Below are positions 8,032-20,000 of a stretch of 20,000 bases of DNA, one piece after another. The position numbers and the translations under genes were made by a program. Source of the stretch: an uncultured virus (IMG/VR IMGVR_UViG_3300031758_000046) (lineage: Duplodnaviria > Heunggongvirae > Uroviricota > Caudoviricetes); the IMG/VR virus record IMGVR_UViG_3300031758_000046; one strand, 5' to 3'. The first letter of the stretch is position 1. Each line of letters opens with the position of its first letter. Below the pieces are notes generated by a model. That model was not told the DNA's origin, ran no database searches, and was given only the letters and a program-made list of their open reading frames with translations.

Positions 8032-10506
8032 ATGTCAACAGTAAGAATTCAAGTAAGACGAGGTACTGCATCAGAATGGACCTCAGTAAATCCTACACTA
8101 GCTGCAGGAGAACTAGGTGTTGAAACAGACACTAGAAAAATTAAAATTGGAACTGGAAGCACTGCTTGGACTAGCCTTTCTTACATAGCAGCAGACTCAC
8201 CAGCAATTACAGAAATTGCACAAGACGCAATTGATCAAGCTCTTTCTATGGGCTCAGGTCTTACAAAGTCTTATAACGATAACACAAATACAATTTCCCT
8301 TGGCATCGACGACTCAATTGTCGCACTTAAATCTTATGTTGACAGCCAGGTAGGTGGGTTACAAAATACAGTAACTTCAGACTATGTATTATTAGCAGAT
8401 GTTGGAAATGCAGGTGGACCTGCAAAATTAGATGCTGACGGAAACTTGCTTGTTCCAAAATCAAGCATTATTATAGAAGGATCATCAGCAGATGCTCATG
8501 AAACCACACTAACAGTATCAAATCCAACATCAGATAGAACAATCACACTTCCAGACTCATCTGGTACAGTAGCACTAACATCAGACCTTGCACCATATGC
8601 AACAACACAAGCATTAAATTCCGTAGTATCTTCATTGAATATTCATCAAGCAGTAAATGTTGCAACAACAGAACCGTTAGTAGCAACTTATGCTGCTGGT
8701 TCCGCTGATAACGGCAATGGAACTGGAATTGGTGCAACATTAACAATGAACTCAAATGGCACTCTAACAATAGATGGCTTACAAGCAGAAAATGGATTTA
8801 GAATATTAGTAAAAGATCAAGCAAACTTAGTTCATAATGGTATTTATGAAGTAACAATTGCAGGATCAGCTGGAGCACCAGCCGTTTTAACTAGATCTGC
8901 AGACTACAATAACTCAGATGTAAACACACCTCTTGATGTTGCTAAAGGCGATGTCGTTTTTGTAACAGATGGAACAGAAAATGGATATAAACAATTTTCT
9001 CAAATATACGCAGGAACTAACGCAGACGGCTCAGTAAAAATTGGATCTGAAAATATTGACTTTACTCAAATTTCAGGAGCAGCAACAATTATAGCTGGAA
9101 ATGGTATAACTAAATCAGGAAACACAATTAGTGTTGATGCTCAAGAATTTTTAGCAACATCTACCGCATCAAGTACATATTTAACTCAAGCAGATGCAGC
9201 AAATGACTATTTGTCACAAACAGATGCTGGGGCTACTTATTTAACTCAAGCAGATGCAGCTTTAACATATTTAAATCAAACAGACGCAAGTACGACATAC
9301 CTGTCACAAGCAGATGCAGGTACAACATACTTGTCTCAAGCAGATGCTGCAACAGATTATTTTGCTGTTACAACAGATCAAATTGAAAATGCCAATATTA
9401 AAATTGGCGCAGGAATTGCAGCAGATAAAATATCAGGAAACGCTGTAACACAAGCAGATACAGGAACTGTAACCAATACAATGCTTGCAGGATCCATTGA
9501 TAATAACAAATTATCAAACTCTACAATTTCAGGCATATCGCTTGGATCTAATTTAGAAACATTAACAATTGGAACTGGTTTAAGTGGTACATCTTACAAC
9601 GGTGGATCAGCAGTAACAATTGCAATTGATTCAACAGTTGCTACAGAGTCTTACGCAGACACCGCAGCATCAAATGCTCAAGGAGCAGCAGAAGATTACG
9701 CTGACGGACTTGCAGCAAATTACGAAGTTGCAGGAGCTGTTTCAACACACTCATCTGATACAACAAACGTACACGGAATTACAGATACAGCCCAAATTGC
9801 TCTTCTAGATGCTGCTACACAGCAATTTACAGGAGACATGGGAATTACTGGAGACTTAATTGTTGACGGTGACGTAACTGTTAATGGCGGAAGCTTTACA
9901 GCAAGCGCTACATCTATAACAATTGAAGATAATCTAGTTCAGCTTGCTCATCAAAACGCAGCAAATACCGTAGACTTAGGTCTTGTTGTAGCGTACAATG
10001 ACGGCGCAGCAAAACACTCTGGTATAGTAAGAGATGTTTCTGCTAATAAATGGAAACTATTTAAAGGCGTAACAACAGAGCCTGCTACAACAGTAGACTT
10101 TACAGAAGGATCACTTGATGACCTTGAGTTAAATGAAATTAAAACAGCTGGAGTAGTATTCTCAGACGGCACACAGACCAAAGAGGGTGTTCCTTCAAGA
10201 ACTCCAATTATTTCAAAGACTGCAGACTATACATTGTCTGCGCTAACCGAGAGAGATTCATTAATTGAAGTTGACTCTTCTTCAGCAGTAACAATTACAA
10301 TTCCAACCAACTCAGCAGTTGCTTATCCAATTGGAACAACTCTAGATATTCTTGGAGTTAACACAGGACTAATCACAATCGCAGGAGATACTGGTGTAAC
10401 AGTAAATGCTACCCCAGGATTAAAGTTACGTACACAATGGTCATCCGCAACATTACTCAAGAGAGCAGAAAATTCTTGGGTAGTTTACGGCGACTTGAAA
10501 TCATAA
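8032..10506 (+). CDS. Long tail fibre with N-terminal Mtd_N-like domain and conserved C-terminal beta domain
   Basis: N-terminus 'IQVRRGTASEWTSVNPTLAAGELGVETDTRKIKIG.G.TAW.SL.Y' matches the major-tropism-determinant N-terminal motif; 'RILVKDQ...NGIY' fibre module; 10-aa repeats; C-terminal 'TPGLKLRTQWSSATLLKR...W...GDL'. Confidence 0.82.
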   Translation: MSTVRIQVRRGTASEWTSVNPTLAAGELGVETDTRKIKIGTGSTAWTSLSYIAADSPAITEIAQDAIDQALSMGSGLTKSYNDNTNTISLGIDDSIVALKSYVDSQVGGLQNTVTSDYVLLADVGNAGGPAKLDADGNLLVPKSSIIIEGSSADAHETTLTVSNPTSDRTITLPDSSGTVALTSDLAPYATTQALNSVVSSLNIHQAVNVATTEPLVATYAAGSADNGNGTGIGATLTMNSNGTLTIDGLQAENGFRILVKDQANLVHNGIYEVTIAGSAGAPAVLTRSADYNNSDVNTPLDVAKGDVVFVTDGTENGYKQFSQIYAGTNADGSVKIGSENIDFTQISGAATIIAGNGITKSGNTISVDAQEFLATSTASSTYLTQADAANDYLSQTDAGATYLTQADAALTYLNQTDASTTYLSQADAGTTYLSQADAATDYFAVTTDQIENANIKIGAGIAADKISGNAVTQADTGTVTNTMLAGSIDNNKLSNSTISGISLGSNLETLTIGTGLSGTSYNGGSAVTIAIDSTVATESYADTAASNAQGAAEDYADGLAANYEVAGAVSTHSSDTTNVHGITDTAQIALLDAATQQFTGDMGITGDLIVDGDVTVNGGSFTASATSITIEDNLVQLAHQNAANTVDLGLVVAYNDGAAKHSGIVRDVSANKWKLFKGVTTEPATTVDFTEGSLDDLELNEIKTAGVVFSDGTQTKEGVPSRTPIISKTADYTLSALTERDSLIEVDSSSAVTITIPTNSAVAYPIGTTLDILGVNTGLITIAGDTGVTVNATPGLKLRTQWSSATLLKRAENSWVVYGDLKS
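9178..9357 (+). repeat. Six imperfect 30-nt tandem repeats encoding YL(T/S/N)Q(A/T)DAxxx
   Basis: Tyr codons at 9178, 9208, 9238, 9268, 9298 and 9328, with a further Tyr at 9358. Confidence 0.9.
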
Positions 10507-10518: not shown

Positions 10519-11856
10519 ATGAGTAAGAGATCTGGTAGAAAATCCCAAGCAGCAAATGACTTTTTAGAGCCAAAACCTGTAGAAAATTTAGTAGCTACAG
10601 ATGTAGGAACTTCTAGAGCATACAATGACGGAGCAGTAAATCTATCATGGGAGTTACCTGCAGGATCACCTCCAGCAACCTCTTACTCAATTACAACAAC
10701 CCCAGCATCAACAACACAAACTACATCTAATACCTCTTTTACATTTACTGGGCTATCATCAGATACAGCCTATACATTTTCAATAACTGGAAGCAATGCT
10801 GCAGGAACTTCTGCTGCTACAACTTCTAGTTCTGTAACAGCAACTACGGTTCCTCAATCTCCACAATCAGTTTCAGCAGCTTCTCCAAACGCAAACGAAG
10901 ATGTTGTTTCATGGTCAGCAGGTGCTTCTGGTGGTAAAACAATTACTAGTTATACCGTAATATCTTCAGATGGACCATCATACACAAATTCAACTTCACC
11001 AAAAACTATTTCAGAAACAGCTGGAACTTCACAATCTTATACAGTTTATGCAATTAACGATAATGGAACATCAGTAGGAGCAACTACTGGTTCTGTTACT
11101 ACAACAGCACCGTTCTTCCCACCGTTCTTCCCATATTTCCCACCGTTCTTCCCATATTTCCCACCGTTCTTCCCATTCTTCCCGTTCTTCCCACCATATT
11201 TCCCACCATTCTTCCCATTCTTCCCGTTCTTCCCACCATATTTCCCACCGTTCTTCCCATATTTCCCACCGTTCTTCCCATTCTTCCCGTTCTTCCCACC
11301 GTTCTTCCCACCGTTCTTTCCACCAAGATTCGGTCCATATTTCCCAGCGTGTGTTGACGGAGATACTTTAATCTTAACTAGCGAAGGTCCAAAACCTGCT
11401 AGAGAGATAAAAGTAGGAGATAAACTACTAACAGTTGATGCTTTAGGGTTAGCCGATCAACCTAACAAAACACCTCTTGAAATTAATGTTCAAGATTTGA
11501 TGATAAGTAACATGGTACACACAGAAGTTACAAATGTTATAGTCTCAGACAAACAGGACAGAGTTTACTTCAATGGAAACAAAGAAGTTCAGTTTACAGA
11601 AACTCATCCAATATTCGTAAAACGAAATAACGAATATCGTGTAGTCGAAGCAGGACTAGTACAACAAGGAGATGTTTTAATAAATATCTCAGTAGATAAC
11701 TTATCTGAAACTTTAGATATGACCAAGGTAATATCAGAAGTTGAAGTGTCTAAGGTAGATAAAATAACTTTAGATTTAGCAAAAGATGTGTACACATTTA
11801 GCTGCGATCCACATAATTGGTACTTCGCAGGAGATATATTAACACACAATAAGTAA
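10519..11856 (+). CDS. Basic N-peptide + two FN3-like domains + (PFFP)n tract + C-terminal Hint domain
   Basis: RBS AAGGAG; FN3 signatures 'NLSWE.P...SYSI...FTGLSSDTAYTFSI...NAAG.S' and 'VSWSA...ITSYTV...YTVYAINDNG.S'; 79-aa P/F/Y tract; Hint domain from Cys278 to terminal HNK. Confidence 0.88.
   Translation: MSKRSGRKSQAANDFLEPKPVENLVATDVGTSRAYNDGAVNLSWELPAGSPPATSYSITTTPASTTQTTSNTSFTFTGLSSDTAYTFSITGSNAAGTSAATTSSSVTATTVPQSPQSVSAASPNANEDVVSWSAGASGGKTITSYTVISSDGPSYTNSTSPKTISETAGTSQSYTVYAINDNGTSVGATTGSVTTTAPFFPPFFPYFPPFFPYFPPFFPFFPFFPPYFPPFFPFFPFFPPYFPPFFPYFPPFFPFFPFFPPFFPPFFPPRFGPYFPACVDGDTLILTSEGPKPAREIKVGDKLLTVDALGLADQPNKTPLEINVQDLMISNMVHTEVTNVIVSDKQDRVYFNGNKEVQFTETHPIFVKRNNEYRVVEAGLVQQGDVLINISVDNLSETLDMTKVISEVEVSKVDKITLDLAKDVYTFSCDPHNWYFAGDILTHNK
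11110..11346 (+). repeat. Mosaic tandem repeat of 9- and 12-nt units encoding PFFP/YFP/FFP/PYFP (79 aa)
   Basis: Units such as CCGTTCTTCCCA, TATTTCCCA and TTCTTCCC(A/G); all residues are P, F or Y except one R and one G. Confidence 0.97.
11350..11853 (+). other. Hint (Hedgehog/intein, BIL-like) autoprocessing domain without endonuclease
   Basis: Block A 'CVDGDTLILT', block B 'FTETHP' (TxxH), block F 'VYTFSC', block G 'YFAGDILTHN', then a single Lys and the stop codon. Confidence 0.88.
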
Positions 11857-11868
11857 AATAATAATCAC

Positions 11869-11901
11869 CTAAAGCCCCCAAACGGGGGCTTTAGTATTCT
11901 T
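11869..11901 (+). terminator. Intrinsic terminator
   Basis: Perfect 11-bp inverted repeat CTAAAGCCCCC / GGGGGCTTTAG with AAAC loop and T-rich tail, immediately after the Hint gene. Confidence 0.8.
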
Positions 11902-11928
11902 GACAGTTAATTATATATTATATATAAT
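11900..11928 (+). promoter_or_regulatory. Perfect sigma70 consensus promoter TTGACA-N17-TATAAT
   Basis: TTGACA 11900-11905, 17-nt spacer, TATAAT 11923-11928; 24 nt upstream of the first oxygenase ATG. Confidence 0.85.
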
Positions 11929-11952
11929 GTATACATAGTAGAAAGATAAAAT

Positions 11953-12672
11953 ATGCAAGATATTTATGATATAAACGATAATCCATGGTTTACAAAAGAT
12001 AGATCAGAATCAACTTCTTTTAGGGTAAATAGATCTTTTGGTAATATTAAAGTTTTAAATCCAGGTATTGGATTAAATATTTATGAATCAGCTATTCCAA
12101 GCAGTGTTTGCGAAACATCAATTAAAACATTAGAAGATAAGCTAACAAATGGCAACATGTATAAATGGTCAGAAGCACAAGTTACGACCTCAGACAAACC
12201 AGTAAAATCTGCAAGAGATTGCGTAGATTTTAAATTTAAACCAGAAAATCTTGGAAAAAGAAATGAAAATAATGCAGAACTTCTAGATATGCATGAATCC
12301 ATTTATAATGTATTAAAAAAATGCGTAGATGATTATTGTCAATATTGGGGAATTAATGTTGTATATTATGAAGCTTTTAATTTTGTGAAATACACCAGCC
12401 CAGGACAACATTTTAGAGTTCATGCTGATCATGGTCCACACTATAATTGTACAGTTTCAGCTGTAATATATTTAAATGATGATTACGAGGGCGGGGAGAT
12501 AGCATTTCCAAGATTAGATAAATTAGTATATAAACCAAAACGTGGTGACGTAGTAATTTTTCCATCAAACTATATATACGAACATTCTTCAGAACCAATG
12601 ATTTCTGGAGATAAATACTCTGTTGTAATTATGATGGATATTAACCTATTAGGACATAAGGAGAACAATTAA
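11953..12672 (+). CDS. 2OG-Fe(II) oxygenase, prolyl-4-hydroxylase-like (1)
   Basis: HAD...'YLNDDYEGGE'...'FPS..IYEH'...'GDKYS' (HxD..H triad, Lys for 2OG binding). Confidence 0.9.
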   Translation: MQDIYDINDNPWFTKDRSESTSFRVNRSFGNIKVLNPGIGLNIYESAIPSSVCETSIKTLEDKLTNGNMYKWSEAQVTTSDKPVKSARDCVDFKFKPENLGKRNENNAELLDMHESIYNVLKKCVDDYCQYWGINVVYYEAFNFVKYTSPGQHFRVHADHGPHYNCTVSAVIYLNDDYEGGEIAFPRLDKLVYKPKRGDVVIFPSNYIYEHSSEPMISGDKYSVVIMMDINLLGHKENN

Positions 12673-13328
12673 TGAATAAACAAACTTGGTCAAGCGCAGA
12701 AGACTTAGGATCAGGAATTTGGGTATATAGAGATGTTTTAACAAAAGATTTAGATATTATTAATAGGCTAGAAACAAATTTAGATGGAAGCACTCCAGGT
12801 TGGACTTGGCAGCCAGCTTATGTTGGATATCAAGAAAGAATGCCAGAATATAGAGACTGCGTAGACTTTAAATTTAAAAAATCAGATATAGCAAATGATA
12901 AGTCTCCTATATCATTAAAAATGCAAGAATTGTGGCAAGACTGCTATGATAGGCAAGCACCAGCAGTAGAAGATTATTGTCAAAAACATAATATACATAA
13001 ACTTCAATATTGGGAAGCTTTTAATTTTATTAAATATGTTCCTGGACATCACTTCATGGAGCACCATGATCATGGATTTTCATATAATTGCACTGTATCT
13101 TTAGTTGGCTATATTAACGATGATTACGAGGGCGGAGAATTATATTTCAGATTACAAAATTTAAATATTAAACCAAAAGCTGGAGATTTATATATTTTCC
13201 CTTCAACATATATGTATCCTCATCAAGCAAAAGTAGTTAAGTCTGGAACAAAATATTCATTAGTTACAATGTTAGATTATAGCGCAAAATTTCATACTCC
13301 AGCAATGTACGAAGATACTGGTAATTAG
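12672..13328 (+). CDS. 2OG-Fe(II) oxygenase, prolyl-4-hydroxylase-like (2)
   Basis: HHD...'YINDDYEGGE'...'YPH'...'GTKYS'; paralog of (1), sharing RDCVDFKFK, EAFNF.KY and YNCTVS; TAATG overlap. Confidence 0.9.
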   Translation: MNKQTWSSAEDLGSGIWVYRDVLTKDLDIINRLETNLDGSTPGWTWQPAYVGYQERMPEYRDCVDFKFKKSDIANDKSPISLKMQELWQDCYDRQAPAVEDYCQKHNIHKLQYWEAFNFIKYVPGHHFMEHHDHGFSYNCTVSLVGYINDDYEGGELYFRLQNLNIKPKAGDLYIFPSTYMYPHQAKVVKSGTKYSLVTMLDYSAKFHTPAMYEDTGN

Positions 13329-14047
13329 TGTCTATATTAAAGGCATATAAAAGACATCCAAATTCTTTTATAATTGAACCTATTTCAGTAAAAAGACAAT
13401 GGATGGACGAAACTCCAGACGGTCATGCGTATAGGTGTTTTCCAGTAACAATGGCAAATACAATAGGTTGGACATTATCGTGTCCAGTGGACGTATCATT
13501 TATATGGGATGGGCAAATAGACACAACGCCAGATAGAGTTAAAATTTTATCTGGTCAAGAATATTGTTACACTGGAAGAGGCCAAGGTTCAGTAAGTTTT
13601 AATACAGGTCTTATTCTAAAATCAGAAAAACATATAAGTGTATTAAGTATTACTCCACAAAATTATTTTTATGAAGATTTTGAAGTAATGTCATCATTAA
13701 TAAGTACATCTTTTTTTAATGTTGATTTTCCATTAGCAATTAAAGTTAAAATTCCAAATAAAGAAATTATTATAAAAGCTGGCACTCCCATTGCTACAAT
13801 TATTCCGATTTCTCTTACATCATTAAAAGATGAATCTATAGAAATAGAAAATTTTATAAAGCCAGAAGATTATGATGCTAAATTAAAAAGTTATGGAGAT
13901 GCTGCTCAAGTAATAAATCAATCTGGACAGTGGACAGATTGGTATAGAGATGCTATTGATGAAACTGGCACATCTATTGGAGAGCATGAAACTAAAGCTT
14001 TAAAATTAAAAGTAATAGATAATACAACAAAGGAAAATAACAATTAA
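13328..14047 (+). CDS. DUF6065-like protein (possibly dUTPase-like beta fold)
   Basis: GTG start overlapping the upstream TAG; 'R.WMD.T...HAYRCFP...AN..GW.L.CP.D' and 'IKAGTPIATIIP' motifs. Confidence 0.6.
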   Translation: MSILKAYKRHPNSFIIEPISVKRQWMDETPDGHAYRCFPVTMANTIGWTLSCPVDVSFIWDGQIDTTPDRVKILSGQEYCYTGRGQGSVSFNTGLILKSEKHISVLSITPQNYFYEDFEVMSSLISTSFFNVDFPLAIKVKIPNKEIIIKAGTPIATIIPISLTSLKDESIEIENFIKPEDYDAKLKSYGDAAQVINQSGQWTDWYRDAIDETGTSIGEHETKALKLKVIDNTTKENNN

Positions 14048-14768
14048 TATAATTAAATTTGTATCAAATAGGCCTTGGTTAAATAAAGAAAGTATTTCTA
14101 AGCCAACAGCAGCCATAAAAGAAATACCAGAATGGTTTAGAAAGGCAGATAGATTTGCAGTTAATCCAATTACTAAAGATTATTGGAAAGGGCCAGACGG
14201 AGGCAAAGTTCCTACATGGAAGGCTTGCCCAGCTATATTTGATATATTAGGCACTGGCTATGTTCTTAAAACACCATGCGACATTAAATTTTATTTAAAA
14301 AATAATAAAATGTCTGTTGAAATAAAAGAAGATAGGTATAAAGATTTTTGTTCTCAAAGAGACCCTATGCCACAATTTGTTCATCCAAAAGGTTACCATA
14401 AAGAACATTTTGCATGGTACCCAGACTGGGCAATTGAGTTGCCAGAAGGATACAGTGCTTTATACACAACCCCATTTAATAGGTTTGATTTACCATTTTT
14501 AATGACTACTGGAATTGTAGATAATGATAAAATTAATTTACCAGGAACAATGCCATTTTTTATAATTAGAGGATTTGAAGGAGTGCTACCAGCAGGAACT
14601 CCATATGCTCAAATAATTCCATTTAAAAGAGAAGATTGGTCATCAGAAATATTTATAGAAAATCCAAATAATTTATACAAAAAGAATCAAAAAAATAGTG
14701 ATAAATATAGAGTAAAAGATGGTGGAGTCTATAAAAATGAAGTTTGGTCTAAAAGAACATATGAATAG
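14043..14768 (+). CDS. Second DUF6065-like paralog; N-terminally extended relative to the ORF track, probable ATT start
   Basis: Frame of ORF 14310-14768 is open back to 14019 and encodes 'NIIKFVSNRPWL...P.WFRK...TWKACPAIFD.L.TGYVLKTPCD'; AAGGA at 14030-14034 precedes ATT 14043; C-terminal 'PAGTPYAQIIPFKRE'. Confidence 0.65.
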   Translation: MNIIKFVSNRPWLNKESISKPTAAIKEIPEWFRKADRFAVNPITKDYWKGPDGGKVPTWKACPAIFDILGTGYVLKTPCDIKFYLKNNKMSVEIKEDRYKDFCSQRDPMPQFVHPKGYHKEHFAWYPDWAIELPEGYSALYTTPFNRFDLPFLMTTGIVDNDKINLPGTMPFFIIRGFEGVLPAGTPYAQIIPFKREDWSSEIFIENPNNLYKKNQKNSDKYRVKDGGVYKNEVWSKRTYE

Positions 14769-14770
14769 AA

Positions 14771-14779
14771 TGATATAAT
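14771..14779 (+). promoter_or_regulatory. Extended -10 promoter TGaTATAAT, 6 nt before an ATG (leaderless-type)
   Basis: Motif ends 14779, ATG at 14786, no Shine-Dalgarno between them. Confidence 0.55.
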
Positions 14780-14785
14780 AAATAT

Positions 14786-15457
14786 ATGGACAATAATTTA
14801 GCAAATGGTGCAGCAAATTGGGATAACCGTGTTTCAATAACACCACCTGGATTTTTTGGCAACAGTCCAGAGCATATTCAGGCAAGAGAAAATTTTATGA
14901 CTGAAGAAGAGAGATTATTCTTATTAGAATCAGCTAAATCAATTAATGAGTGGGATAGAACCGAAACTCATTATAATGATGACGGAATTGTAATTTATGA
15001 CTCTTCTTATTGGGATAACCGTGTTGCATCAAGACCAATTCTTGATAAAATAAATCCAGAGATATCTGTTGTAATTGAAAAACTTGTTGAAAGATTAAAA
15101 GTTGAAGTTGATAATCATTTTAATGTTGATGCTAAACCTACAAGTCCAGCAATTGTTAGATGGATGAAAGGATATAGACAAGAGCCACATGCAGACAAAC
15201 AGTTGCAAAATGGAGAGCCAAATGATTTTCCTTGGTATGATCTTGCTGGATTATTTTATTTAAATGATGACTACGAAGGCGGAGAACTTTATTTTATGCA
15301 TCATGATGTACAATTTAAACCAAAACCTGGAGCAGCATATTTCTTCCCAGGAGATGTAGGATACAGTCACGGAGTAAAAGAAATAACAAATGGAATTAGA
15401 TATGTTATTCCATTTTTTTGGACAATTTTAAAACATACTGGTGATAAGCAGCCATGA
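14786..15457 (+). CDS. 2OG-Fe(II) oxygenase, prolyl-hydroxylase-like (3)
   Basis: HAD...'YLNDDYEGGE'...'YSHGV'...'GIRYV'. Confidence 0.9.
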   Translation: MDNNLANGAANWDNRVSITPPGFFGNSPEHIQARENFMTEEERLFLLESAKSINEWDRTETHYNDDGIVIYDSSYWDNRVASRPILDKINPEISVVIEKLVERLKVEVDNHFNVDAKPTSPAIVRWMKGYRQEPHADKQLQNGEPNDFPWYDLAGLFYLNDDYEGGELYFMHHDVQFKPKPGAAYFFPGDVGYSHGVKEITNGIRYVIPFFWTILKHTGDKQP

Positions 15458-16248
15458 CAGTAGATTACACAGAAATATATCCTAAAATATATGTATACCA
15501 CAATTCAATAAAAGATCCTAATTTTTTTTTAAAGCAGTCTTTAAATCAATATAAAATTGGTTGGAAGGATTGGTCATTTTTTGGAAGATATATAGGAATT
15601 GGCGGGAAAACAGCTAAATATAAAAAATTTCCAACCTGGGAAGAATTTAAAGAGTCTATAGATTTACAAGAAAATCAACAACTAAGTTTAGAGTATATTG
15701 ATAAGTTTTATCACAACACTAAACATTATATAGATAATAATTTAATTACTTTAAACGAATGGGCATACGAGTCTTCCTCTTTATGTGAATATGATATAGC
15801 AAAAGGACATGACGGAGAATTCTCTATGGCCTATCACTCAGACTTTATTGTGCCAGAAAAAAATTGGCCAGGATTAAAATTTGAAATATCAGTAACAACT
15901 TATCTTAATGATGATTACGATGACGGTGAGTTGTGTTTTGCTATAGATAACGATTTATTTTCTTATAAACCTAAAGCTGGAGATATGATTATTTTTCCAT
16001 CAAGACCACCATATTTTCATGGAGTAAGAAAACATAAAAATAAAAATAGATATATGATTAGAGGATTTTGGCTATCTTCTTACGAAGGAAGTCTTGAATG
16101 GCATGAGGGATTGCTTAAATACGGTAAAGAAGAGTGGGAAAAAATGCAAAGAATCGAACTAGAAAAATATACCATAGAAAATATACCTTCTCCATCAGAA
16201 TACGCATCTTCTTATTCTAGAGATAATGAAAGATTAAATATAAAATGA
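15454..16248 (+). CDS. 2OG-Fe(II) oxygenase, prolyl-hydroxylase-like (4)
   Basis: HSD...'YLNDDYDDGE'...'FPSRPPYFHGV'...'NRYM'; ATGA overlap. Confidence 0.88.
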   Translation: MTVDYTEIYPKIYVYHNSIKDPNFFLKQSLNQYKIGWKDWSFFGRYIGIGGKTAKYKKFPTWEEFKESIDLQENQQLSLEYIDKFYHNTKHYIDNNLITLNEWAYESSSLCEYDIAKGHDGEFSMAYHSDFIVPEKNWPGLKFEISVTTYLNDDYDDGELCFAIDNDLFSYKPKAGDMIIFPSRPPYFHGVRKHKNKNRYMIRGFWLSSYEGSLEWHEGLLKYGKEEWEKMQRIELEKYTIENIPSPSEYASSYSRDNERLNIK

Positions 16249-17054
16249 AAAATTTAGAATTTATAACAATATATCCTGGAGTAAACGTATACAGAAATGT
16301 TTTTCAGGATGTAAATGATTTTTTAGAAAAAGCAAAAAAATGTGAAAAATGGGAGCAATGGTATACATTTGGATCAATGCTTGCTCTTCAAGAAATGCCA
16401 ATTAAATTTGATTCATTTCCAAATAAAGATGAGTATATGACATCAAGAAAATGGGACGACGGTACAGAAAATTCAAAAATAAGAGGACAGCTAGCAGAAG
16501 AAGTAGCAGAAATATTTTATGATGTAACAAGTCATTATATAAAAATGCATCCAGAGCATTCATTACAAAATTGGATAAAAAACCCCGCTTCTGTTAATAG
16601 ATACAATGATGGATCAAGTATATCTGATAACTATTCAATGAACTACCATACAGACTATAATCAAGAAATTGAAGATTCAAGTGGTATTAAATTTGGAATT
16701 ACTACAACATTTTATTTAAATGATGACTATAAAGATGGAGAAATTTGTTTTAAAATTAATGATCATTTTATTTCTCATAAACCACAAAAGGGAGACGTAA
16801 TAGTATTTCCATCTAAGCCACCATACTATCATGCAGTTAGAAAATCTAGTGGAACAGATAGATATATGATTAGATCATTTTGGCAATTTGAGTATGAAGG
16901 ATCAAAAGAATGGCTAGAAAATCAAGAAAAATACGGCAAAGATGTTTGGGCGTCTATGGAAGAAAAAAGAATTAGCAAAGAAAGATTTATGTATCAAATT
17001 GAAGGAGAGTCTATGCATAAATTTTTTGGAAAAGATAATGGAATTAAACTATGA
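16245..17054 (+). CDS. 2OG-Fe(II) oxygenase, prolyl-hydroxylase-like (5)
   Basis: HTD...'YLNDDYKDGE'...'FPSKPPYYHAV'...'DRYM'; paralog of (4) including the C-terminal 'YEGS.EW.E...KYGK..W' extension; ATGA overlap. Confidence 0.88.
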   Translation: MKNLEFITIYPGVNVYRNVFQDVNDFLEKAKKCEKWEQWYTFGSMLALQEMPIKFDSFPNKDEYMTSRKWDDGTENSKIRGQLAEEVAEIFYDVTSHYIKMHPEHSLQNWIKNPASVNRYNDGSSISDNYSMNYHTDYNQEIEDSSGIKFGITTTFYLNDDYKDGEICFKINDHFISHKPQKGDVIVFPSKPPYYHAVRKSSGTDRYMIRSFWQFEYEGSKEWLENQEKYGKDVWASMEEKRISKERFMYQIEGESMHKFFGKDNGIKL

Positions 17055-17893
17055 GACAATGTACTTGTGGAAGATCTAATGCGTATCCATATTGTGATGG
17101 AACTCATAAAAAGAAAAAGGAGCCAATAATGAAAGACGGCATGATAGATGTTTTAGATAAAAGTAAATTTATTGTTTTGCAAGACGAAGAAGTTCCAGAA
17201 AATAAAGCTGGTGTACTTGGAGTCTATACCAATAAAATTGTAGAAATACCCAACTTTATTGACCCAGCAATAGTTCCCAAGATGATTCATTTTTTTGAAA
17301 ATTGTAATGTTGAGTGGGGAGATATTGCGTTTTACGGATCTTCTGGAAAAGGTATTTTAACTGACTCTGAAACAATGAAAAAATTTGGATTGCCAGATGA
17401 ATTTTTTGATAAGTTAAAAAATAAATATCAGGAAACAGTAGAACTGGTATTCGGCAGAGAAGTTAGAGCAAATACTTCTCATGCACAAAAATGGGATGTT
17501 GGAGGATTTGCAAGCCCGCATTCAGATAATTCAGATAATGAAGGAAAACCTAATGCTTTTGAAATAAATAAGTATGTTGGAATTTTATACTTAAACGATG
17601 ACTATGAGGGTGGGGAATTATATTTTTGCGATAAAGATAATGAGATGAATCCATATCTATCATTTAAACCAAATGTATATTCTTATTATGTATTTCCTGG
17701 AGGGTATGAAAATATTCACGGAGTATCAGAAATTACTAAAGGAACAAGATACACTATGGTATCATTTTGGGATTTTGCAGATTTAGTATATGACGATGCT
17801 ACTTTAGAAAAATGGAAAGAAGAAGAAAAGCAAGTTAGAATTGAACAGGCTGCACAAAAAGAAGAATGGCTAAAAGGAAATAAATATGCCTAA
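17051..17893 (+). CDS. CDGSH [2Fe-2S] motif fused to a 2OG-Fe(II) oxygenase (6)
   Basis: N-terminal CTCGRSNAYPYCDGTH matches C-x-C-x2-S-x3-P-x-C-D-G-(S/T)-H; HSD...'YLNDDYEGGE'...'IHGV'...'GTRYT'; ATGA overlap. Confidence 0.88.
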   Translation: MRQCTCGRSNAYPYCDGTHKKKKEPIMKDGMIDVLDKSKFIVLQDEEVPENKAGVLGVYTNKIVEIPNFIDPAIVPKMIHFFENCNVEWGDIAFYGSSGKGILTDSETMKKFGLPDEFFDKLKNKYQETVELVFGREVRANTSHAQKWDVGGFASPHSDNSDNEGKPNAFEINKYVGILYLNDDYEGGELYFCDKDNEMNPYLSFKPNVYSYYVFPGGYENIHGVSEITKGTRYTMVSFWDFADLVYDDATLEKWKEEEKQVRIEQAAQKEEWLKGNKYA

Positions 17894-18482
17894 TGTTCAA
17901 AGATTTGAAAAAATATCATATTATAAAAACGTTATAGACGATCCTAAATCACTAATCAATTTAATAGAGGAGTCAGATAAAAATTTAACGTCAGATACTA
18001 GTATCCCAAGTTGGCAAGAATGGAATGCTAGCGGAGATAGTCCTTATCAATTTGGTTATCAAAAAAGATTTAACAATAATGTTGAAGCTGATACTTCTCT
18101 AGAAATTAAAAAAATAAATATGACATTAAAAAATGCTATTGTAGATGCATCTAATGATTATTCAAAAGAATATGGTATAAATATAGGAACATTAATGCCT
18201 TTATCTATAAGTAAGTATTCCACTGGAAAATCTATGGGCCCTCATGTAGACGATTATAATAATGGAGATGACCCAAACATATCAGTAGTTTTATATTTAA
18301 ATGATAATTATGACGGTGGTGAGATTAATTTCCCAAATCAAAACATAACAATAAAACCAGAAGCAGGAAGCATTGTGATATTCCCATCTGTAGAGCCATA
18401 TTACCACGAATCCCTACCAGTTATTTCTGGTATTAAATATATGTCTCCTGGATTTTGGCGTAAAGTAGACAAGGTGGTATAA
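17886..18482 (+). CDS. 2OG-Fe(II) oxygenase, prolyl-4-hydroxylase-like (7)
   Basis: HVD...'YLNDNYDGGE'...'PYYHES'...'GIKYM'. Confidence 0.9.
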   Translation: MPNVQRFEKISYYKNVIDDPKSLINLIEESDKNLTSDTSIPSWQEWNASGDSPYQFGYQKRFNNNVEADTSLEIKKINMTLKNAIVDASNDYSKEYGINIGTLMPLSISKYSTGKSMGPHVDDYNNGDDPNISVVLYLNDNYDGGEINFPNQNITIKPEAGSIVIFPSVEPYYHESLPVISGIKYMSPGFWRKVDKVV

Positions 18483-18483
18483 T
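18455..18483 (+). promoter_or_regulatory. Promoter TTGGCG-N17-TATAAT with extended -10 TG, 6 nt before an ATG (leaderless-type)
   Basis: TTGGCG 18455-18460; TGgTATAAT 18475-18483; ATG 18490. Confidence 0.55.
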
Positions 18484-18489
18484 TTAAAA

Positions 18490-19593
18490 ATGGCCACTAT
18501 TCCAAATGATAAAAACTGGAGATTCCCAGACTACACAGATTCACCAGATATACCAAGAGATATTTCTTATTTAGCTGCAGATATTTCAGAGTATATAGAT
18601 TCTCACCCAGGTCCACAAGGTGAGCAGGGGGATACTGGACCAGCAGGACCAGCAAACGTTTTATCAGTCGGAACAGTAACAACTGGACCAGCAGAGTCTT
18701 CAGCCTCAGTTACAATTACTGGTACATCACCAGAGCAAACAATCAATTTTACAATTCCTCGTGGCGATACTGGAGCAACTGGTGCAACTGGCGCACAAGG
18801 TATTCAGGGAATACAGGGCATACAAGGAGAACAAGGAATTCAAGGTATACAAGGAGAAAAGGGCGACAAGGGCGATACTGGTGCAACTGGCGCAACAGGA
18901 CCTCAAGGTATACAAGGCGAAAAAGGTGATGATGGTGACCAGGGCATACAAGGAGAACAAGGAACTGGCGTTAATATATTAGGTTCTTATGCTAATCTTA
19001 CAGCACTACAGACAGCACATCCAACTGGAAGCTCTGGAGATGCATATTTAATAGATAATGATTTATATGTTTGGTCTCAATCAACATCTTCATGGATAAA
19101 CGTTGGAACAATAAGAGGCCCACAAGGTATTCAAGGAGAGCATGGCATACAGGGTCCAAAAGGCGATAAGGGAGATACTGGCGATACTGGAGCAACTGGT
19201 GCACAAGGACCGCAAGGCCCACAAGGCGAACCAGGATTAACAGGAGCAGACGGAGCAGACGGAGCAGACGGAGCAGACGGTCAAGACCTTACATCAGTAT
19301 TTACAATATCACAAAAATCTACATCTTACACATTAGTGGCATCAGATCTTGGAAAATTAATAGAAATGTCAAATGGCGGAGATCTAATTATACCAACAGA
19401 TTCAGAAATATTTGATATCGGATCTACTATAGATATAATTCAAACTGGATCATCGCAAGTAACAATAGGCGGAGATACTGGTGTAACAGTAAACTCAACC
19501 CCAGGATTAAAATTAAGAGCACAGTGGTCATCTGCAACATTAATTAAAAGAGGAAATAATCTTTGGGTTGCTGTAGGCGATTTGAGCGTCTAA
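18490..19593 (+). CDS. Collagen-like tail fibre with the same C-terminal domain as the 8032 fibre
   Basis: N-terminal 'FPDYTDSPDIPRDI..LA..I' attachment-type motif; three Gly-X-Y blocks; C-terminal 'GDTGVTVNSTPGLKLRAQWSSATLIKR...W...GDL'. Confidence 0.85.
   Translation: MATIPNDKNWRFPDYTDSPDIPRDISYLAADISEYIDSHPGPQGEQGDTGPAGPANVLSVGTVTTGPAESSASVTITGTSPEQTINFTIPRGDTGATGATGAQGIQGIQGIQGEQGIQGIQGEKGDKGDTGATGATGPQGIQGEKGDDGDQGIQGEQGTGVNILGSYANLTALQTAHPTGSSGDAYLIDNDLYVWSQSTSSWINVGTIRGPQGIQGEHGIQGPKGDKGDTGDTGATGAQGPQGPQGEPGLTGADGADGADGADGQDLTSVFTISQKSTSYTLVASDLGKLIEMSNGGDLIIPTDSEIFDIGSTIDIIQTGSSQVTIGGDTGVTVNSTPGLKLRAQWSSATLIKRGNNLWVAVGDLSV
18610..19287 (+). repeat. Gly-X-Y collagen repeats in three blocks (5, 22 and 19 triplets), including perfect (GGAGCAGAC)x4
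   Basis: Blocks start at 18610, 18763 and 19117; perfect 9-nt repeat at 19243-19278. Confidence 0.92.
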
Positions 19594-19594
19594 A

Positions 19595-20000
19595 ATGCCA
19601 AAAAGAAATCGTGGTAGATCTGGTACAAGAAAAACAAATGTTCCAAATTATTTAGGACAAACTTCTACCGACACGCAAACATCTTTAACAAATCTTGGAT
19701 TTGTTTATATATATAATACAACCGATACTACAACAGAGTCTGATAATTTAAAAATATATTCACAAAGTATTTCTTCTGGTCAATTATATACTTTGGGATC
19801 ACAAGTTTCAGTTGAATATTATGTGTATGTTGCGCCGTTCTTCCCACCGTTCTTTCCATTTTTCCCACCCTATTTCCCACCGTTCTTTCCATTTTTCCCA
19901 CCCTATTTCCCACCGTTCTTTCCATTTTTCCCACCCTATTTCCCACCGTTCTTTCCATTTTTCCCACCCTATTTCCCACCGTTCTTTCCATTTTTCCCAC
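19595..20000 (+). CDS. Basic N-peptide + PASTA-like domain + (PFFP)n tract; runs off the window end (absent from the ORF track)
   Basis: ATG 19595, 1 nt after the upstream stop; MPKRNRGRSGTRKTNVPNYLGQTSTDTQTSLTNLGF...IYSQSISSG...GSQVSVEYYVYVAPFFPPFFPFFPPYF...; no stop before 20000. Confidence 0.85.
   Translation, partial: MPKRNRGRSGTRKTNVPNYLGQTSTDTQTSLTNLGFVYIYNTTDTTTESDNLKIYSQSISSGQLYTLGSQVSVEYYVYVAPFFPPFFPFFPPYFPPFFPFFPPYFPPFFPFFPPYFPPFFPFFPPYFPPFFPFFP
19835..20000 (+). repeat. Perfect 33-nt tandem repeat encoding PPFFPFFPPYF
   Basis: Unit CCACCGTTCTTTCCATTTTTCCCACCCTATTTC at 19844, 19877, 19910 and 19943, plus a 25-nt partial copy at 19976 truncated by the window. Confidence 0.97.

What the first reader, a model, noticed from the sequence alone, without database searches (positions are those of the whole stretch)
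10519..20000. Candidate new system: Pro/Phe-repeat virion proteins with Hint autoprocessing flanking a seven-oxygenase tailoring cluster
Seen: two genes with long (PFFP)n tracts bracket a tightly overlapped block of seven P4H-like 2OG-Fe(II) oxygenases, all with intact HxD..H triads, and two DUF6065-like proteins. The first tract ends one residue (Ala) before the catalytic Cys of a Hint domain. Known: P4H-type enzymes act on Pro-rich polypeptides (a chlorovirus PBCV-1 P4H modifies Pro-rich viral repeats), and Hint domains generate a reactive thioester at their N-terminal junction. Inference: the PFFP tracts are substrates that are hydroxylated (Pro, possibly Phe/Tyr) by divergent oxygenases and freed or ligated at their C-terminus by the Hint domain. 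This would be a RiPP-like or extensin-like maturation pathway for a phage appendage displayed on fibre tips. I know of no described system with this architecture, but cannot search to confirm novelty.
Basis: partly seen in the sequence, partly recalled or inferred. Interest (0 to 1): 0.92.

Follow-up and report, generated by a model that had tools for sequence, protein, structure and literature searches.

The report
Phage proline-phenylalanine tethers with hydroxylase battery
An uncultured lake phage, like hundreds of relatives, encodes tail-fibre-region proteins carrying a long stretch made almost only of proline and phenylalanine, here capped by a self-cleaving intein-like domain and followed by seven collagen-hydroxylase-like enzymes whose make-up follows the proline pattern of the stretch, which points to an undescribed but unproven protein-modification system in phages.

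Summary
ORF 10519-11856 encodes two FN3 domains, an 81-residue Pro/Phe/Tyr tract and a C-terminal Hint domain whose Cys278 follows Ala277. A paralogue starts at 19595.

New here:
- The Hint is a bacterial-intein-like (BIL) domain (PDB 2LWY, E 3e-11) with Cys1, TxxH and HN-Lys-stop invariant in this clade.
- Hint is only one of several C-terminal caps: 46 of 156 tail types. Cys-rich tails are commoner (52).
- DUF6065 has a dUTPase fold (Z 11).
- A conserved hairpin plus a perfect sigma-70 promoter separates the tract gene from the oxygenases.
- In a sample seeded with DUF6065, 46 of 46 informative loci have a tract gene just upstream of the cluster.
- Phages with Pro-Pro-rich tracts carry 6-13 oxygenases; those with Pro-poor tracts carry 0-5.
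- The oxy1 orthologue occurs in 85 of 85 clusters whose tract has single-Pro F-P-F/Y motifs and in 0 of 17 without. On trees this needs only 1-3 changes, so shared descent is not excluded.

Hydroxylation and cleavage are inferred, not shown. An auxiliary-gene cassette remains a serious rival. The scan reached like readings before on other DNA (three notes). No paper was found.

The parts
8032..10506 (+). Tail-fibre protein (824 aa) with an Mtd_N-like N-terminus. Its C-terminal ~95 aa domain is shared with the collagen-like fibre. It lies directly upstream of tract gene 1.
   Evidence: Pfam Mtd_N E 1.8e-15. phrog_8780 and phrog_21978 match the C-termini of both fibre proteins. Homologues precede the tract gene in most loci.
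10519..11856 (+). Tract protein 1 (445 aa): two FN3 domains, a Pro/Phe/Tyr tract and a C-terminal BIL-type Hint domain.
11107..11349 (+). Pro/Phe/Tyr tract, residues 197-277 (37 F, 34 P, 6 Y). DNA repeat periods are 21, 42 and 63 nt. Codon use is unusual: Phe TTC 36 of 37, Pro CCG 11 of 34.
   Evidence: AlphaFold2 pLDDT about 43 with no secondary structure.
11350..11853 (+). BIL-type Hint domain, residues 278-445. It has Cys1 (C278), block B TETH, block F VYTFSCDP and block G ILTHN, followed by Lys and the stop codon.
   Evidence: Pfam Intein_splicing E 3.2e-7, 30.7 bits, below the 35.8 cut-off. The profile's best PDB hit is 2lwy, a bacterial intein-like domain, E 3.1e-11. The residues are invariant in the clade.
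11869..11894 (+). Terminator-like hairpin (11-bp stem, 7 G-C pairs) behind the tract gene.
   Evidence: The stem keeps pairing through compensatory changes in 7 clade members.
11900..11928 (+). Perfect sigma-70-type promoter, TTGACA-17-TATAAT, ahead of oxy1.
   Evidence: 12 of 12 matches. Conserved in 7 clade members. One of only two perfect matches in the 76.9-kb record.
11953..12672 (+). oxy1, a P4H-like 2OG-Fe(II) oxygenase. Its orthologue follows single-Pro F-P-F/Y motifs in related phages.
   Evidence: PF13640, 50.3 bits. Catalytic triad present. Co-distribution 85 of 85 and 0 of 17.
12672..13328 (+). oxy2, a P4H-like oxygenase.
   Evidence: PF13640, 46.3 bits..
13328..14047 (+). DUF6065 protein (duf1) with a predicted dUTPase-like fold.
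   Evidence: PF19541 E 2e-30. Model pLDDT 82. VIA-align Z 11.0 to dUTPases; the top 23 rows are all from the dUTPase/dCTP-deaminase superfamily and the next row has Z 3.8.
14043..14768 (+). Second DUF6065-type gene (duf2). The frame is open from 14019. The canonical ATG of relatives reads ACA here, an ATT lies at 14043, and the first ATG is at 14310.
   Evidence: Full-length tblastn matches from residue 1 in haloviruses.
14786..15457 (+). oxy3, a P4H-like oxygenase.
   Evidence: PF13640, 37.3 bits..
15454..16248 (+). oxy4, a P4H-like oxygenase. It is absent from many relatives.
   Evidence: PF13640, 38.1 bits..
16245..17054 (+). oxy5, a P4H-like oxygenase.
   Evidence: PF13640, 37.6 bits.
17051..17893 (+). 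oxy6, a P4H-like oxygenase with an N-terminal CDGSH-type Fe-S motif.
   Evidence: PF13640, 37.3 bits. zf-CDGSH 29.0 bits, just under the 29.5 cut-off.
17886..18482 (+). oxy7, a P4H-like oxygenase.
   Evidence: PF13640, 51.4 bits.
18490..19593 (+). Collagen-like fibre protein (367 aa). It starts 7 nt after oxy7 and its C-terminal domain resembles that of the 824-aa fibre.
   Evidence: Pfam Collagen E 1e-21. PHROG tail-fibre families.
19595..20000 (+). Tract protein 2, cut by the window end (304 aa in the genome, ending at window coordinate 20509): PASTA-like N-terminus, tract and BIL-type Hint ending THNK.

Best explanation
The window holds the host-recognition end of a roughly 110-kb uncultured phage found in runs labelled lake-water or freshwater metagenomes.

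Each of two fibre genes is followed by an accessory protein with three parts:
- an N-terminal adaptor (two FN3 domains, or a PASTA-like domain);
- a disordered, very hydrophobic tether of P-aromatic-F and PP-aromatic-F units;
- an exchangeable C-terminal cap, here a bacterial-intein-like Hint domain.

Proposed mechanism:
1. The seven P4H-like 2OG/Fe(II) oxygenases are transcribed from their own strong promoter, probably on one transcript with the collagen-like fibre gene and the second tract gene. They hydroxylate prolines of the tract. Different paralogues serve different proline contexts: oxy1 serves single Pro between aromatic residues, others serve Pro-Pro.
2. The BIL domain makes a thioester at Ala277-Cys278. 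As BIL domains mostly do, it resolves this by cleavage, which frees the FN3-tract protein with a new C-terminus.

Shown: the anatomy, the conserved catalytic residues, the synteny, and the co-distribution of enzyme set and tract motif.
Inferred: hydroxylation, the substrate, cleavage, and a place on the virion.

My odds: the Hint of this clade is active, 0.65; the oxygenases act on the tract, 0.5; the whole statement, 0.42.
For: - Hint. The profile's best PDB hit is the BIL domain 2lwy (E 3.1e-11), followed by mini-inteins. Cys1, TETH and HN-Lys-stop are invariant in 15 of 15 clade sequences and in the first seven of the 17 sequences. BIL domains lack the +1 nucleophile and mostly give cleaved products (PMC7664689, passages read).
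- The wider Hint family has 511 representatives at E up to 1e-10. In the 39 members I printed, the domain nearly always follows a Pro/aromatic low-complexity repeat directly.
- Oxygenases. 7 of 7 pass PF13640 and have the intact triad plus a Lys or Arg. Profile hits are P3H1 9e-10, B. anthracis P4H 1.3e-7, LH3 and PBCV-1 P4H.
- Synteny. In the DUF6065-seeded sample, 46 of 46 informative loci have a tract ORF within 2.5 kb upstream of the cluster; 29 loci were uninformative. In the tract-seeded sample, 70 of 89 tract ORFs have an oxygenase or DUF gene within 3 kb downstream. Adjacency holds although the upstream fibre gene, the gene order inside the cluster and the C-terminal cap all differ.
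- Dose. Eight records with Pro-Pro-rich tracts hold 6-13 PF13640 genes. Ten records with Pro-poor tracts (FGFTPFG, PYSFTP, FAPFG) hold 0-5.
- Match. An oxy1 orthologue is present in 85 of 85 clusters whose tract has F-P-F/Y and absent in 17 of 17 with Pro-Pro motifs only. Two oxy2-like genes occur in 12 of 14 PPG-type clusters.
- No terminator-like site lies between oxy7 and the collagen-like gene, which starts 7 nt later.
Against: - No mass or expression data exist. No RNA run holds the locus.
- In the PBCV-1 precedent the P4H works on peptides, yet no hydroxyproline was found in virion proteins (PMC7019647, passages read).
- The cluster sits behind a conserved hairpin and a perfect consensus promoter, as morons do.
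- In G001 and G005, 5.5 kb lie between tract gene and cluster. They encode a TylF-type methyltransferase, a duf2-like protein, a radical SAM-SPASM enzyme, a PLP Cys/Met enzyme, an unassigned 180-aa ORF, a weak ferritin-like match (below Pfam's cut-off) and a GMP-reductase/IMPDH-type protein. An SDR sits inside the cluster.
- Oxygenases of the same phrog_61 type abound in cyanophages and pelagiphages. The four records I scanned have no tract pattern.
- Two or three more oxygenase genes lie elsewhere in this genome: phmmer finds three, PF13640 two.
- DUF6065 has a dUTPase fold. Relatives of duf2 sit beside thymidylate synthase, DNA polymerase or RNR.
- The co-variation may be one lineage effect. 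On trees the tract type changes 4 times (2 on well-supported branches) and the oxy1/FPF pair 3 times (1 on well-supported branches). Sign tests give p 0.5 to 1.
- Three records with Pro-Pro-rich tracts hold 1, 0 and 0 oxygenases (G002, G003, G004). They are fragments, 50%, 26% and 8% complete.
- Only 46 of 156 tail types have a Hint, and 17 of these lack Cys1, the terminal HN or both.
- The tract is modelled without structure.
Confidence: 0.42

Rival explanations
1. The oxygenase/DUF6065 block is an auxiliary (moron-type) cassette that acts on host proteins or small molecules, like the multi-copy 2OG-Fe(II) oxygenases of cyanomyophages. It lies beside the tract gene only because this phage lineage keeps a cargo hot spot at the end of its fibre module.
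For: - Own perfect promoter behind a hairpin, conserved in 7 clade members.
- Metabolic genes inserted at the same spot in G001 and G005.
- The same oxygenase family occurs in 306 cyanophage, pelagiphage and methylophage records. 14 of 16 cyanomyophages carry several copies of unknown role (PMC3037559, passages read).
- Two or three extra copies lie elsewhere in this genome.
- duf2 relatives lie among nucleotide-metabolism and auxiliary genes.
Against: - 46 of 46 adjacency holds through rearrangements.
- Oxygenase number and oxy1 presence follow the tract's motif type.
- The block is flanked on both sides by fibre genes on the same strand, with 7 nt to the next fibre gene and no terminator-like site there.
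Confidence: 0.3
2. The oxygenases hydroxylate other virion proteins, above all the collagen-like fibre (Pro or Lys in G-X-Y repeats), and not the Pro/Phe tract.
For: - Profile hits include the collagen P3H1, P4H and lysyl hydroxylase LH3.
- A collagen-like gene follows oxy7 after 7 nt here and in all close relatives that reach that far.
- Collagen-like genes recur near the cluster in distant relatives.
Against: - This collagen-like protein has only 5.4% Pro.
- Collagen-like genes also occur in the Pro-poor-tract phages that have few or no oxygenases (L247, L252, L265).
- oxy1 follows a tract motif, not a collagen feature.
Confidence: 0.12
3. The Hint domain of these proteins is a structural or receptor-binding tip that stays on the protein and does not process itself.
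For: - 17 of 46 Hint-type tails lack Cys1, the terminal HN or both, yet keep the fold-level match.
- Hint alternates with Cys-rich and FN3-like tails at the same position, as receptor-binding tips do.
Against: - In the window's clade Cys1, TETH and HN-Lys are invariant, while 20% of columns vary overall.
- HNK endings dominate the 149 best family representatives.
Confidence: 0.3
4. The cassette modifies nucleotides or DNA: dUTPase-fold proteins work together with the oxygenases.
For: - DUF6065 matches the dUTPase/dCTP-deaminase fold with Z 11.
- duf2 relatives lie beside thymidylate synthase, DNA polymerase or RNR.
Against: - The oxygenases match P4H-type protein hydroxylases; no TET/JBP family appeared.
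- Identity to dUTPases is only 12-17%. By my own look at the consensus, which is not a test, no dUTPase motif stands out.
- A duf2-like gene stays next to the tract gene even in phages without oxygenases (L264, L284, L286, L303).
Confidence: 0.06

Closest known systems
A-type bacterial intein-like (BIL) domains, such as the Clostridium thermocellum BIL (PDB 2LWY)
   Same: Best solved match (E 3.1e-11). Cys1, block B TxxH and a terminal His-Asn are present, and there is no nucleophile at +1. BIL domains mostly cleave rather than splice (PMC7664689).
   Different: Here the domain is the very C-terminus, followed by a single Lys. It sits on phage fibre-module proteins, always directly after a Pro/aromatic low-complexity tract. 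Activity is untested.
Hedgehog/Hog proteins (an N-terminal domain plus a C-terminal Hint that transfers the N-terminal part to a nucleophile)
   Same: The Hint is C-terminal and nothing of size follows it, so only the N-terminal product can matter. The thioester forms at the junction.
   Different: There is no sterol-recognition region. The sequence is nearer to BIL domains and mini-inteins than to Pfam Hint (PF01079, E 0.0041 on the second protein). The acceptor nucleophile, if there is one, is unknown.
Chlorovirus PBCV-1 prolyl 4-hydroxylase and that virus's Pro-rich repeat proteins
   Same: A virus-encoded P4H-type enzyme alongside viral Pro-rich repeats. PBCV-1 P4H is among the profile hits (E 2.5e-4). 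[quoted passage not shown]
   Different: PBCV-1 has one enzyme, not next to its presumed substrates, in a eukaryotic virus, and no Hyp was found in its virions. Here 6-13 paralogues sit directly beside a Pro/Phe tract gene in a phage.
Multi-copy 2OG-Fe(II) oxygenases of T4-like cyanophages and pelagiphages (phrog_61)
   Same: Same PHROG and Pfam family. Several paralogues per genome, function unknown (PMC3037559).
   Different: Those genes lie in auxiliary-gene islands. I found no Pro/Phe tract pattern in 0 of 4 records scanned, two of which are cyanophages and one a pelagiphage. Here they form one co-oriented block tied to a tract gene.
Self-cleaving C-terminal intramolecular chaperone domains of phage tailspikes and fibres (Peptidase_S74 type; recalled, not searched)
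   Same: A C-terminal domain of a fibre-module protein that may remove itself after folding or assembly.
   Different: The fold and chemistry are unrelated: a Ser-Lys protease against a Hint thioester. No sequence relation was seen.
Hydroxyproline-rich glycoproteins (extensins) with plant and algal P4Hs (recalled)
   Same: Long Pro-rich repeats as P4H substrates. A glycosyltransferase is encoded in the window (20-1009).
   Different: The tract has no Ser-Pro(n) motif; it is Pro plus Phe/Tyr only. Glycosylation is pure conjecture.

Membership tests
HINT superfamily, BIL type | Sequence or profile match to Hint/intein domains | tested here: met
   Profile A5 against PDB: 2lwy (BIL) E 3.1e-11, then mini-inteins down to 1e-5. 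Pfam Intein_splicing E 3.2e-7, but 30.7 bits is below the 35.8 cut-off.
HINT superfamily, BIL type | N-terminal Cys/Ser nucleophile and block B TxxH | tested here: met
   C278 and T-E-T-H are invariant in the window's clade. They are lost in some distant tract proteins.
HINT superfamily, BIL type | Terminal His-Asn without a Cys/Ser/Thr at +1 (this separates BIL domains from inteins) | tested here: met
   The protein ends THN-K-stop, invariant in 15 of 15 sequences. HNK endings are common among the 149 best representatives.
HINT superfamily, BIL type | Hint fold | tested here: inconclusive
   The Hint part is modelled at pLDDT 80-90 as an all-beta domain. The Foldseek list was filled by FN3 hits, and the domain was not folded alone.
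HINT superfamily, BIL type | Autocatalytic cleavage or splicing | not testable with these tools
   Needs expression of the wild type and a C278A mutant.
Intein (mobile, spliced out of a host protein) | Inserted within a conserved host protein, with a +1 nucleophile | tested here: not met
   The domain is C-terminal. The C-extein is one Lys, and no homing endonuclease is present.
P4H-type 2OG-Fe(II) oxygenases (PF13640) | Family profile over the curated cut-off | tested here: met
   7 of 7 ORFs score 37.3-51.4 bits against 27.
P4H-type 2OG-Fe(II) oxygenases (PF13640) | HxD...H iron triad and a basic 2OG-binding residue | tested here: met
   H157, D159 and H211 (oxy1 numbering) are invariant. 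A Lys or Arg is present at +10 in 7 of 7.
P4H-type 2OG-Fe(II) oxygenases (PF13640) | Peptidyl-proline hydroxylase activity on a defined substrate | not testable with these tools
   Only association data exist.
DUF6065 (PF19541) | Family profile over the cut-off | tested here: met
   duf1 scores 106.5 bits against 26.6. duf2 has no Pfam hit at E up to 1. It is related through BLASTP (E 9e-6) and phrog_7084.
dUTPase/dCTP-deaminase superfamily | Fold | tested here: met
   VIA-align Z 11.0, rmsd 2.8 A, 111 residues aligned (24ok). The 23 top rows all belong to this superfamily and the next row has Z 3.8. Foldseek E 1.7e-4.
dUTPase/dCTP-deaminase superfamily | Catalytic motifs and nucleotide binding | not tested
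   Identity is 12-17%. No motif-by-motif structural alignment was made.
RiPP pathway | A short precursor peptide (leader plus core) beside its tailoring enzymes | tested here: not met
   The presumed substrate is a 445-aa protein with two folded FN3 domains. No RiPP recognition or leader-peptidase family was hit.
Moron / auxiliary gene cassette | Own promoter and terminator, set into a structural operon | tested here: inconclusive
   An upstream hairpin and a perfect promoter are present and conserved. No terminator-like site follows oxy7.

The most novel reading that the evidence does not exclude
Phages of a widespread freshwater lineage run their own multi-enzyme protein-hydroxylation pathway. 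A battery of 6-13 diverged P4H-like oxygenases, each tuned to one proline context, converts a Pro/Phe/Tyr tether on a fibre accessory protein into a hydroxyproline-rich appendage. That appendage could be sticky or a site for glycosylation. A C-terminal BIL domain then turns the tether's end into a thioester. The thioester is either hydrolysed or captured by a nucleophile on the virion or on the host surface; capture on the host would amount to covalent attachment by a phage.
Probability: 0.35. Interest if true: 0.88.

Novelty: new variant of a known kind. Interest (0 to 1): 0.77.

Why it matters
- The multi-copy P4H-like 2OG oxygenases of aquatic phages have had no function for about fifteen years. 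This lineage offers the first concrete candidate substrate, encoded next door, and a testable rule that pairs enzyme with motif (oxy1 with F-P-F/Y).
- If the reading holds, it would be the first phage-encoded virion hydroxylation pathway.
- It would also be a natural set of context-specific prolyl hydroxylases acting on a simple repeat polymer, of use to protein chemists.
- The tract-plus-BIL architecture is common: 511 representative proteins at E up to 1e-10. It would add a new biological role for intein-like domains.
- Even if the rival holds, the tether proteins with their exchangeable Cys-rich, Hint or FN3 caps are an undescribed class of phage host-recognition parts.

Tried and rejected
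- Complex prediction, three copies of the collagen-like fibre's C-terminal domain with the N-terminal domain of tract protein 2: no answer (score 0.06, mark 0.32).
- Expression data: no RNA holder is listed.
- Tract-length polymorphism from public contigs: all four runs break inside the tract. Lengths taken from short-read assemblies, including the 18-144-residue range in my loci, cannot be trusted.
- Foldseek on the whole 445-aa model: only FN3 hits, so the Hint fold was not tested in this way.
- megablast of 10519-20000 against isolated phages: only a 39-nt match. tblastn of the tract protein: 14 jumbo Erwinia/Dickeya phage records at 26-29% identity over the Hint part.
- duf1 against isolated phages: no match.
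- ESM Atlas for duf1: only DUF6065 clusters, mostly viral, with no function given.
- Isolated 'Ca. Nanopelagicales' phages as a possible lab model: they are 39-kb phages and 'oxygenase' does not occur in the paper's text (PMC10202952, passages read).
- The phiCbK paper's 'Hint domain' refers to ordinary inteins in TerL and RNR.
- Independent-contrast tests: too few independent changes to reach significance.
- Reverse-strand ORFs over the tracts (G-X-Y-like or W/E-rich repeats, such as window 11099-11338, minus strand): I read these as mirror images of the repeat, because FN3 and Hint flank the tract in the plus frame.
- Literature searches that found no description: 'DUF6065', 0 papers; P4H with phage tail fibre; Hint domain with phage tail fibre; 2OG-Fe with cyanophage; BIL with phage; hydroxyproline with bacteriophage virion; freshwater actinophage with 2OG-Fe. 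For these I saw listings and abstracts only, apart from the passages cited elsewhere in this report.

Full report
**Setting.** The window is bases 18495-38494 of a 76,885-bp virus record that CheckV rates 71% complete. Its capsid protein and class II ribonucleotide reductase are nearest to those of ~130-kb Streptomyces siphophages (58-65% identity). Two 100%-complete relatives measure 114 and 120 kb. Near-identical DNA occurs in 20 public runs from 14 studies, labelled lake-water, freshwater, aquaculture or 'fungus' metagenomes; 11 of these runs may be the source itself. Window bases 3398-10506 encode a series of fibre proteins. After the second tract gene the genome continues with a LamG-like protein, portal, protease and capsid genes.

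**Observation.**
- ORF 10519-11856 (445 aa) has two FN3 domains (Pfam E 5.4e-13; pLDDT above 90; Foldseek hits to tandem FN3 pairs).
- Residues 197-277 form an 81-residue tract of 37 Phe, 34 Pro and 6 Tyr, built from PPFF, PFF, PYF and PPYF units. Cys278 follows Ala277 directly.
- A paralogue starts at 19595 and runs 509 bases past the window end. It has a different, PASTA-like N-terminus and 64% identity over tract plus Hint.
- Between the two lie seven ORFs that all pass PF13640. HxD, the distal His and a Lys or Arg ten residues later are all present.
- There are two DUF6065-type genes. The second has lost its canonical start, ATG to ACA compared with four relatives, but its frame stays open.

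**The Hint domain.** Pfam's Intein_splicing model matches below its cut-off (30.7 against 35.8 bits). A profile of 17 family members finds the bacterial intein-like domain 2LWY first (E 3.1e-11) and mini-inteins after it. In the window's clade Cys1, block B T-E-T-H and the ending T-H-N-K-stop never vary. The missing +1 nucleophile is the mark of BIL domains, which mostly give cleaved products (PMC7664689, passages read). From memory, some A-type BILs can still ligate their flanks through the amino group that is freed.

A search of 1.84 billion representatives found 4,936 relatives at E up to 0.001 and 511 at E up to 1e-10. Most of the best 149 end in HNK or a close variant. Only 24 of the 149 have a strict Pro/Phe/Tyr tract. 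In the 39 others I printed, Cys1 nearly always follows some other Pro/aromatic repeat, such as FGFTPFGAFG, PYSFTP, PPGFFAPP, PPDFTPAPP or PTPTPT. The junction of a low-complexity tract with Cys1 is therefore the conserved unit.

**The tract proteins are modular.** I found 156 distinct C-terminal tails among 3'-complete tract ORFs:

| Tail type | Count |
|---|---|
| Cys-rich, 13-75 residues | 52 |
| Other short tail | 30 |
| Hint with Cys1 and HN | 29 |
| 12 residues or fewer | 15 |
| Another domain, often FN3-like | 13 |
| Hint with Cys1 only | 11 |
| Hint with neither | 5 |
| Hint with HN only | 1 |

Hint is thus one exchangeable cap, and in some lineages it has lost its catalytic residues. 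AlphaFold2 gives the tract no structure (pLDDT about 43). Within the tract Phe is encoded by TTC 36 times in 37 and Pro by CCG 11 times in 34. Other window genes use TTT 151 times in 174 and CCG 5 times in 194. Apparent tract lengths of 18-144 residues in related contigs cannot be trusted, because short-read contigs break inside the tract.

**Each tract gene follows a fibre gene.** The 824-aa fibre protein and the collagen-like fibre protein share a C-terminal domain, and each is followed by a tract gene. This fits an accessory protein that docks on a fibre. A complex prediction gave no answer.

**Enzymes.** A profile of the seven oxygenases hits prolyl 3-hydroxylase 1 (9e-10), Bacillus anthracis P4H (1.3e-7), PiuC, lysyl hydroxylase LH3 and PBCV-1 P4H (2.5e-4). 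oxy6 carries an N-terminal CDGSH-type motif, just under Pfam's cut-off.

DUF6065 modelled at pLDDT 82. Its fold is that of dUTPases and dCTP deaminases: Z 11.0, the top 23 rows all from that superfamily, and the next row at Z 3.8. Relatives of duf2 occur in 49 haloarchaeal virus records and one cyanophage record. In the two records I looked at they lie next to thymidylate synthase and DNA polymerase, or next to RNR and transaldolase.

**Signals.** The 96-nt gap after the tract gene holds an 11-bp hairpin followed at once by TTGACA-17-TATAAT. Both are kept in seven clade members, and the stem keeps pairing through compensatory changes. Only one other perfect promoter exists in the record. No terminator-like site separates oxy7 from the collagen-like gene 7 nt further on. 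The promoter may therefore drive the oxygenases and the two following structural genes together.

**Comparative genomics.**
- The 32 loci found with the Hint domain all belong to one clade and share the window's gene order.
The best 80 were kept, and 75 of them were new loci that I annotated.
- In the DUF6065-seeded sample, 46 of 46 loci with at least 2.5 kb upstream have a tract ORF within 2.5 kb of the cluster; 29 loci were cut too short to tell.
- In the tract-seeded sample, 70 of 89 tract ORFs with at least 3 kb downstream have an oxygenase or DUF gene within 3 kb.
- The 19 exceptions are mostly second or third tract paralogues of the same phage. The rest are L107 (a 3.7-kb gap) and L043, L052, L076 and L089.
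- Adjacency survives changes in the upstream fibre gene, in cluster gene order and in the cap.
- These loci are related to one another and some overlap, so the counts are not independent.

**Does the enzyme set follow the tract?**
- Among tract-Hint genes that directly follow a fibre gene, those with Pro-Pro-rich tracts mostly have 4-8 oxygenases within 6 kb. Second paralogues and clusters set apart by an insert have 0-2. Those with Pro-poor tracts have 0, 0, 0, 1, 0, 4, 0, 0, 1, 1.
- Whole-record counts of PF13640 genes in Pro-Pro-rich phages are 9, 6, 7, 8, 6, 7, 10 and 13. In Pro-poor phages they are 1, 5, 1, 0, 0, 5, 2, 2, 1 and 1. Several of the Pro-poor records are near-identical.
- Three records with Pro-Pro-rich tracts go against the trend with 1, 0 and 0 genes. 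They are 50%, 26% and 8% complete.
An oxy1 orthologue is present in 85 of 85 clusters whose tract has a single Pro between aromatic residues (F-P-F/Y). It is absent in 17 of 17 clusters whose tract has only Pro-Pro motifs (PPGFF, PPHF). PPG-type clusters have two oxy2-like genes in 12 of 14 cases.
- On a DUF6065 tree of 92 distinct clusters, counts and table agree that the two traits coincide in every row, but they need only three changes, and one on well-supported branches. On a Hint tree the tract type changes four times, two on well-supported branches. Sign tests give p 0.5 to 1.
- The pattern is what an enzyme-substrate pair predicts, but shared descent is not excluded.

**Against the tailoring reading.**
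- The hairpin-promoter pair is typical of a moron.
- In G001 and G005, 5.5 kb separate the tract gene from the cluster. They encode a TylF-type methyltransferase, a duf2-like protein, a radical SAM-SPASM enzyme, a PLP Cys/Met enzyme, an unassigned 180-aa ORF, a weak ferritin-like match (below Pfam's cut-off) and a GMP-reductase/IMPDH-type protein. A short-chain dehydrogenase lies inside the cluster.
- The same oxygenase family is common in cyanophages and pelagiphages, where its role is unknown (PMC3037559, passages read). I found no tract pattern in the four named virus records scanned.
- Two or three further oxygenase genes lie elsewhere in this genome.
- In the closest precedent, PBCV-1, the P4H hydroxylates peptides, but no hydroxyproline was detected in virion proteins (PMC7019647, passages read).

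**Most likely mechanism.**
- Shown: the modular anatomy, intact catalytic residues in all seven oxygenases and in both Hint domains, conserved adjacency, and an enzyme set that follows the tract motif.
- Inferred: the oxygenases hydroxylate tract prolines, with paralogues split by proline context. The BIL domain forms a thioester at Ala277-Cys278 and cleaves, leaving FN3-tract as the mature fibre accessory.
- Odds: Hint active in this clade 0.65; oxygenases act on the tract 0.5; both together, with the virion role, 0.42. An auxiliary cassette has 0.30, collagen-like fibres as the target 0.12, and nucleotide or DNA chemistry 0.06.

**Novelty.** The parts belong to known kinds: BIL/Hint, P4H-type oxygenases, FN3 and collagen-like fibres. 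I found no description of three things: the tract-plus-BIL architecture on phage fibre-module proteins, the link between tract and oxygenase battery, or the dUTPase fold of DUF6065. The searches were made, and subscription journals are not covered. Three earlier notes of this scan on other DNA (e1-6104951, e1-6104946, e1-6109782) reached like readings. They are not independent evidence, but I re-derived their main claims here.

Noticed in passing
window 17051-17120: oxy6 begins MRQCTCGRSNAYPYCDGTHKK, a CDGSH-type [2Fe-2S] motif (Pfam zf-CDGSH 29.0 bits against a cut-off of 29.5) fused to a P4H-like oxygenase.
   Followed up: no
window 14019-14310: The second DUF6065-type gene has ACA where four relatives have the start ATG. 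The frame stays open and the next codon is ATT, so the gene uses either a rare start or is decaying. The closest relatives (L005, L006, L167) show the same short ORF.
   Followed up: partly
window 11107-11349: Codon use in the tract differs sharply from the rest of the window: Phe TTC 36 of 37 against TTT 151 of 174 elsewhere, and Pro CCG 11 of 34 against 5 of 194. This may avoid long T runs, or it may reflect the origin of the repeat unit.
   Followed up: partly
L042:609-1613, L069:645-1583, L086:2409-3326, L050:9368-10306 and others: The commonest C-terminal cap of tract proteins is not Hint but a 26-48-residue tail with 4 or more Cys, such as GGCSGCARSYCWQACPSCCGSCGC (52 of 156 tail types). 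It is an undescribed mini-domain at the end of the tether.
   Followed up: partly
L242:585-6096 (G001), mirrored in L243 (G005): Between the tract-Hint gene and the oxygenase cluster lie a TylF-type methyltransferase, a duf2-like gene, a radical SAM-SPASM enzyme, a PLP Cys/Met enzyme, an unassigned 180-aa ORF, a weak ferritin-like match and a GMP-reductase/IMPDH-type protein. An SDR lies inside the cluster.
   Followed up: partly
L264:11332-12072, L284:10190-10906, L286:11287-12003, L303:11305-12021: In phages with Pro-poor tracts and few or no oxygenases nearby, a duf2-like gene still directly follows the tract-Hint gene. The DUF-tract link may therefore be tighter than the oxygenase-tract link.
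   Followed up: no
window 8032-10506 and 18490-19593: The 824-aa fibre and the collagen-like fibre share a ~95-residue C-terminal domain (phrog_8780, phrog_21978), and each is followed by a tract gene. This hints at a docking pair.
   Followed up: partly
window 11099-11338 (-), L313:10550-11005 (-), L292:10538-11020 (-): The reverse strand of the tracts gives long spurious ORFs with G-X-Y-like or W/E-rich repeats, which gene callers could mistake for collagen-like genes.
   Followed up: no
window 10519-12100 in runs X2, X14, X16, X18: Short-read contigs end at about 11145 and resume at about 11289, and summed depth rises up to about a hundred-fold inside the tract. Tracts are assembly break points shared by many phages in one sample.
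   Followed up: yes
G000:C1 11424-12137 (-), 12459-13238 (+), 67439-68050 (+): Further P4H-like oxygenase genes lie outside the cluster, far from any tract gene. phmmer finds three; the PF13640 search finds two of them.
   Followed up: no
window 20-1009 and 1097-3031: A group-1 glycosyltransferase (phrog_2170) and a class II (B12-type) ribonucleotide reductase lie just upstream of the fibre module.
   Followed up: no
window 10519-10570 and 19595-19650: Both tract proteins start with a basic motif (MSKRSGRKSQAANDFLEP and MPKRNRGRSGTRK). It is conserved across relatives despite their different N-terminal domains.
   Followed up: no
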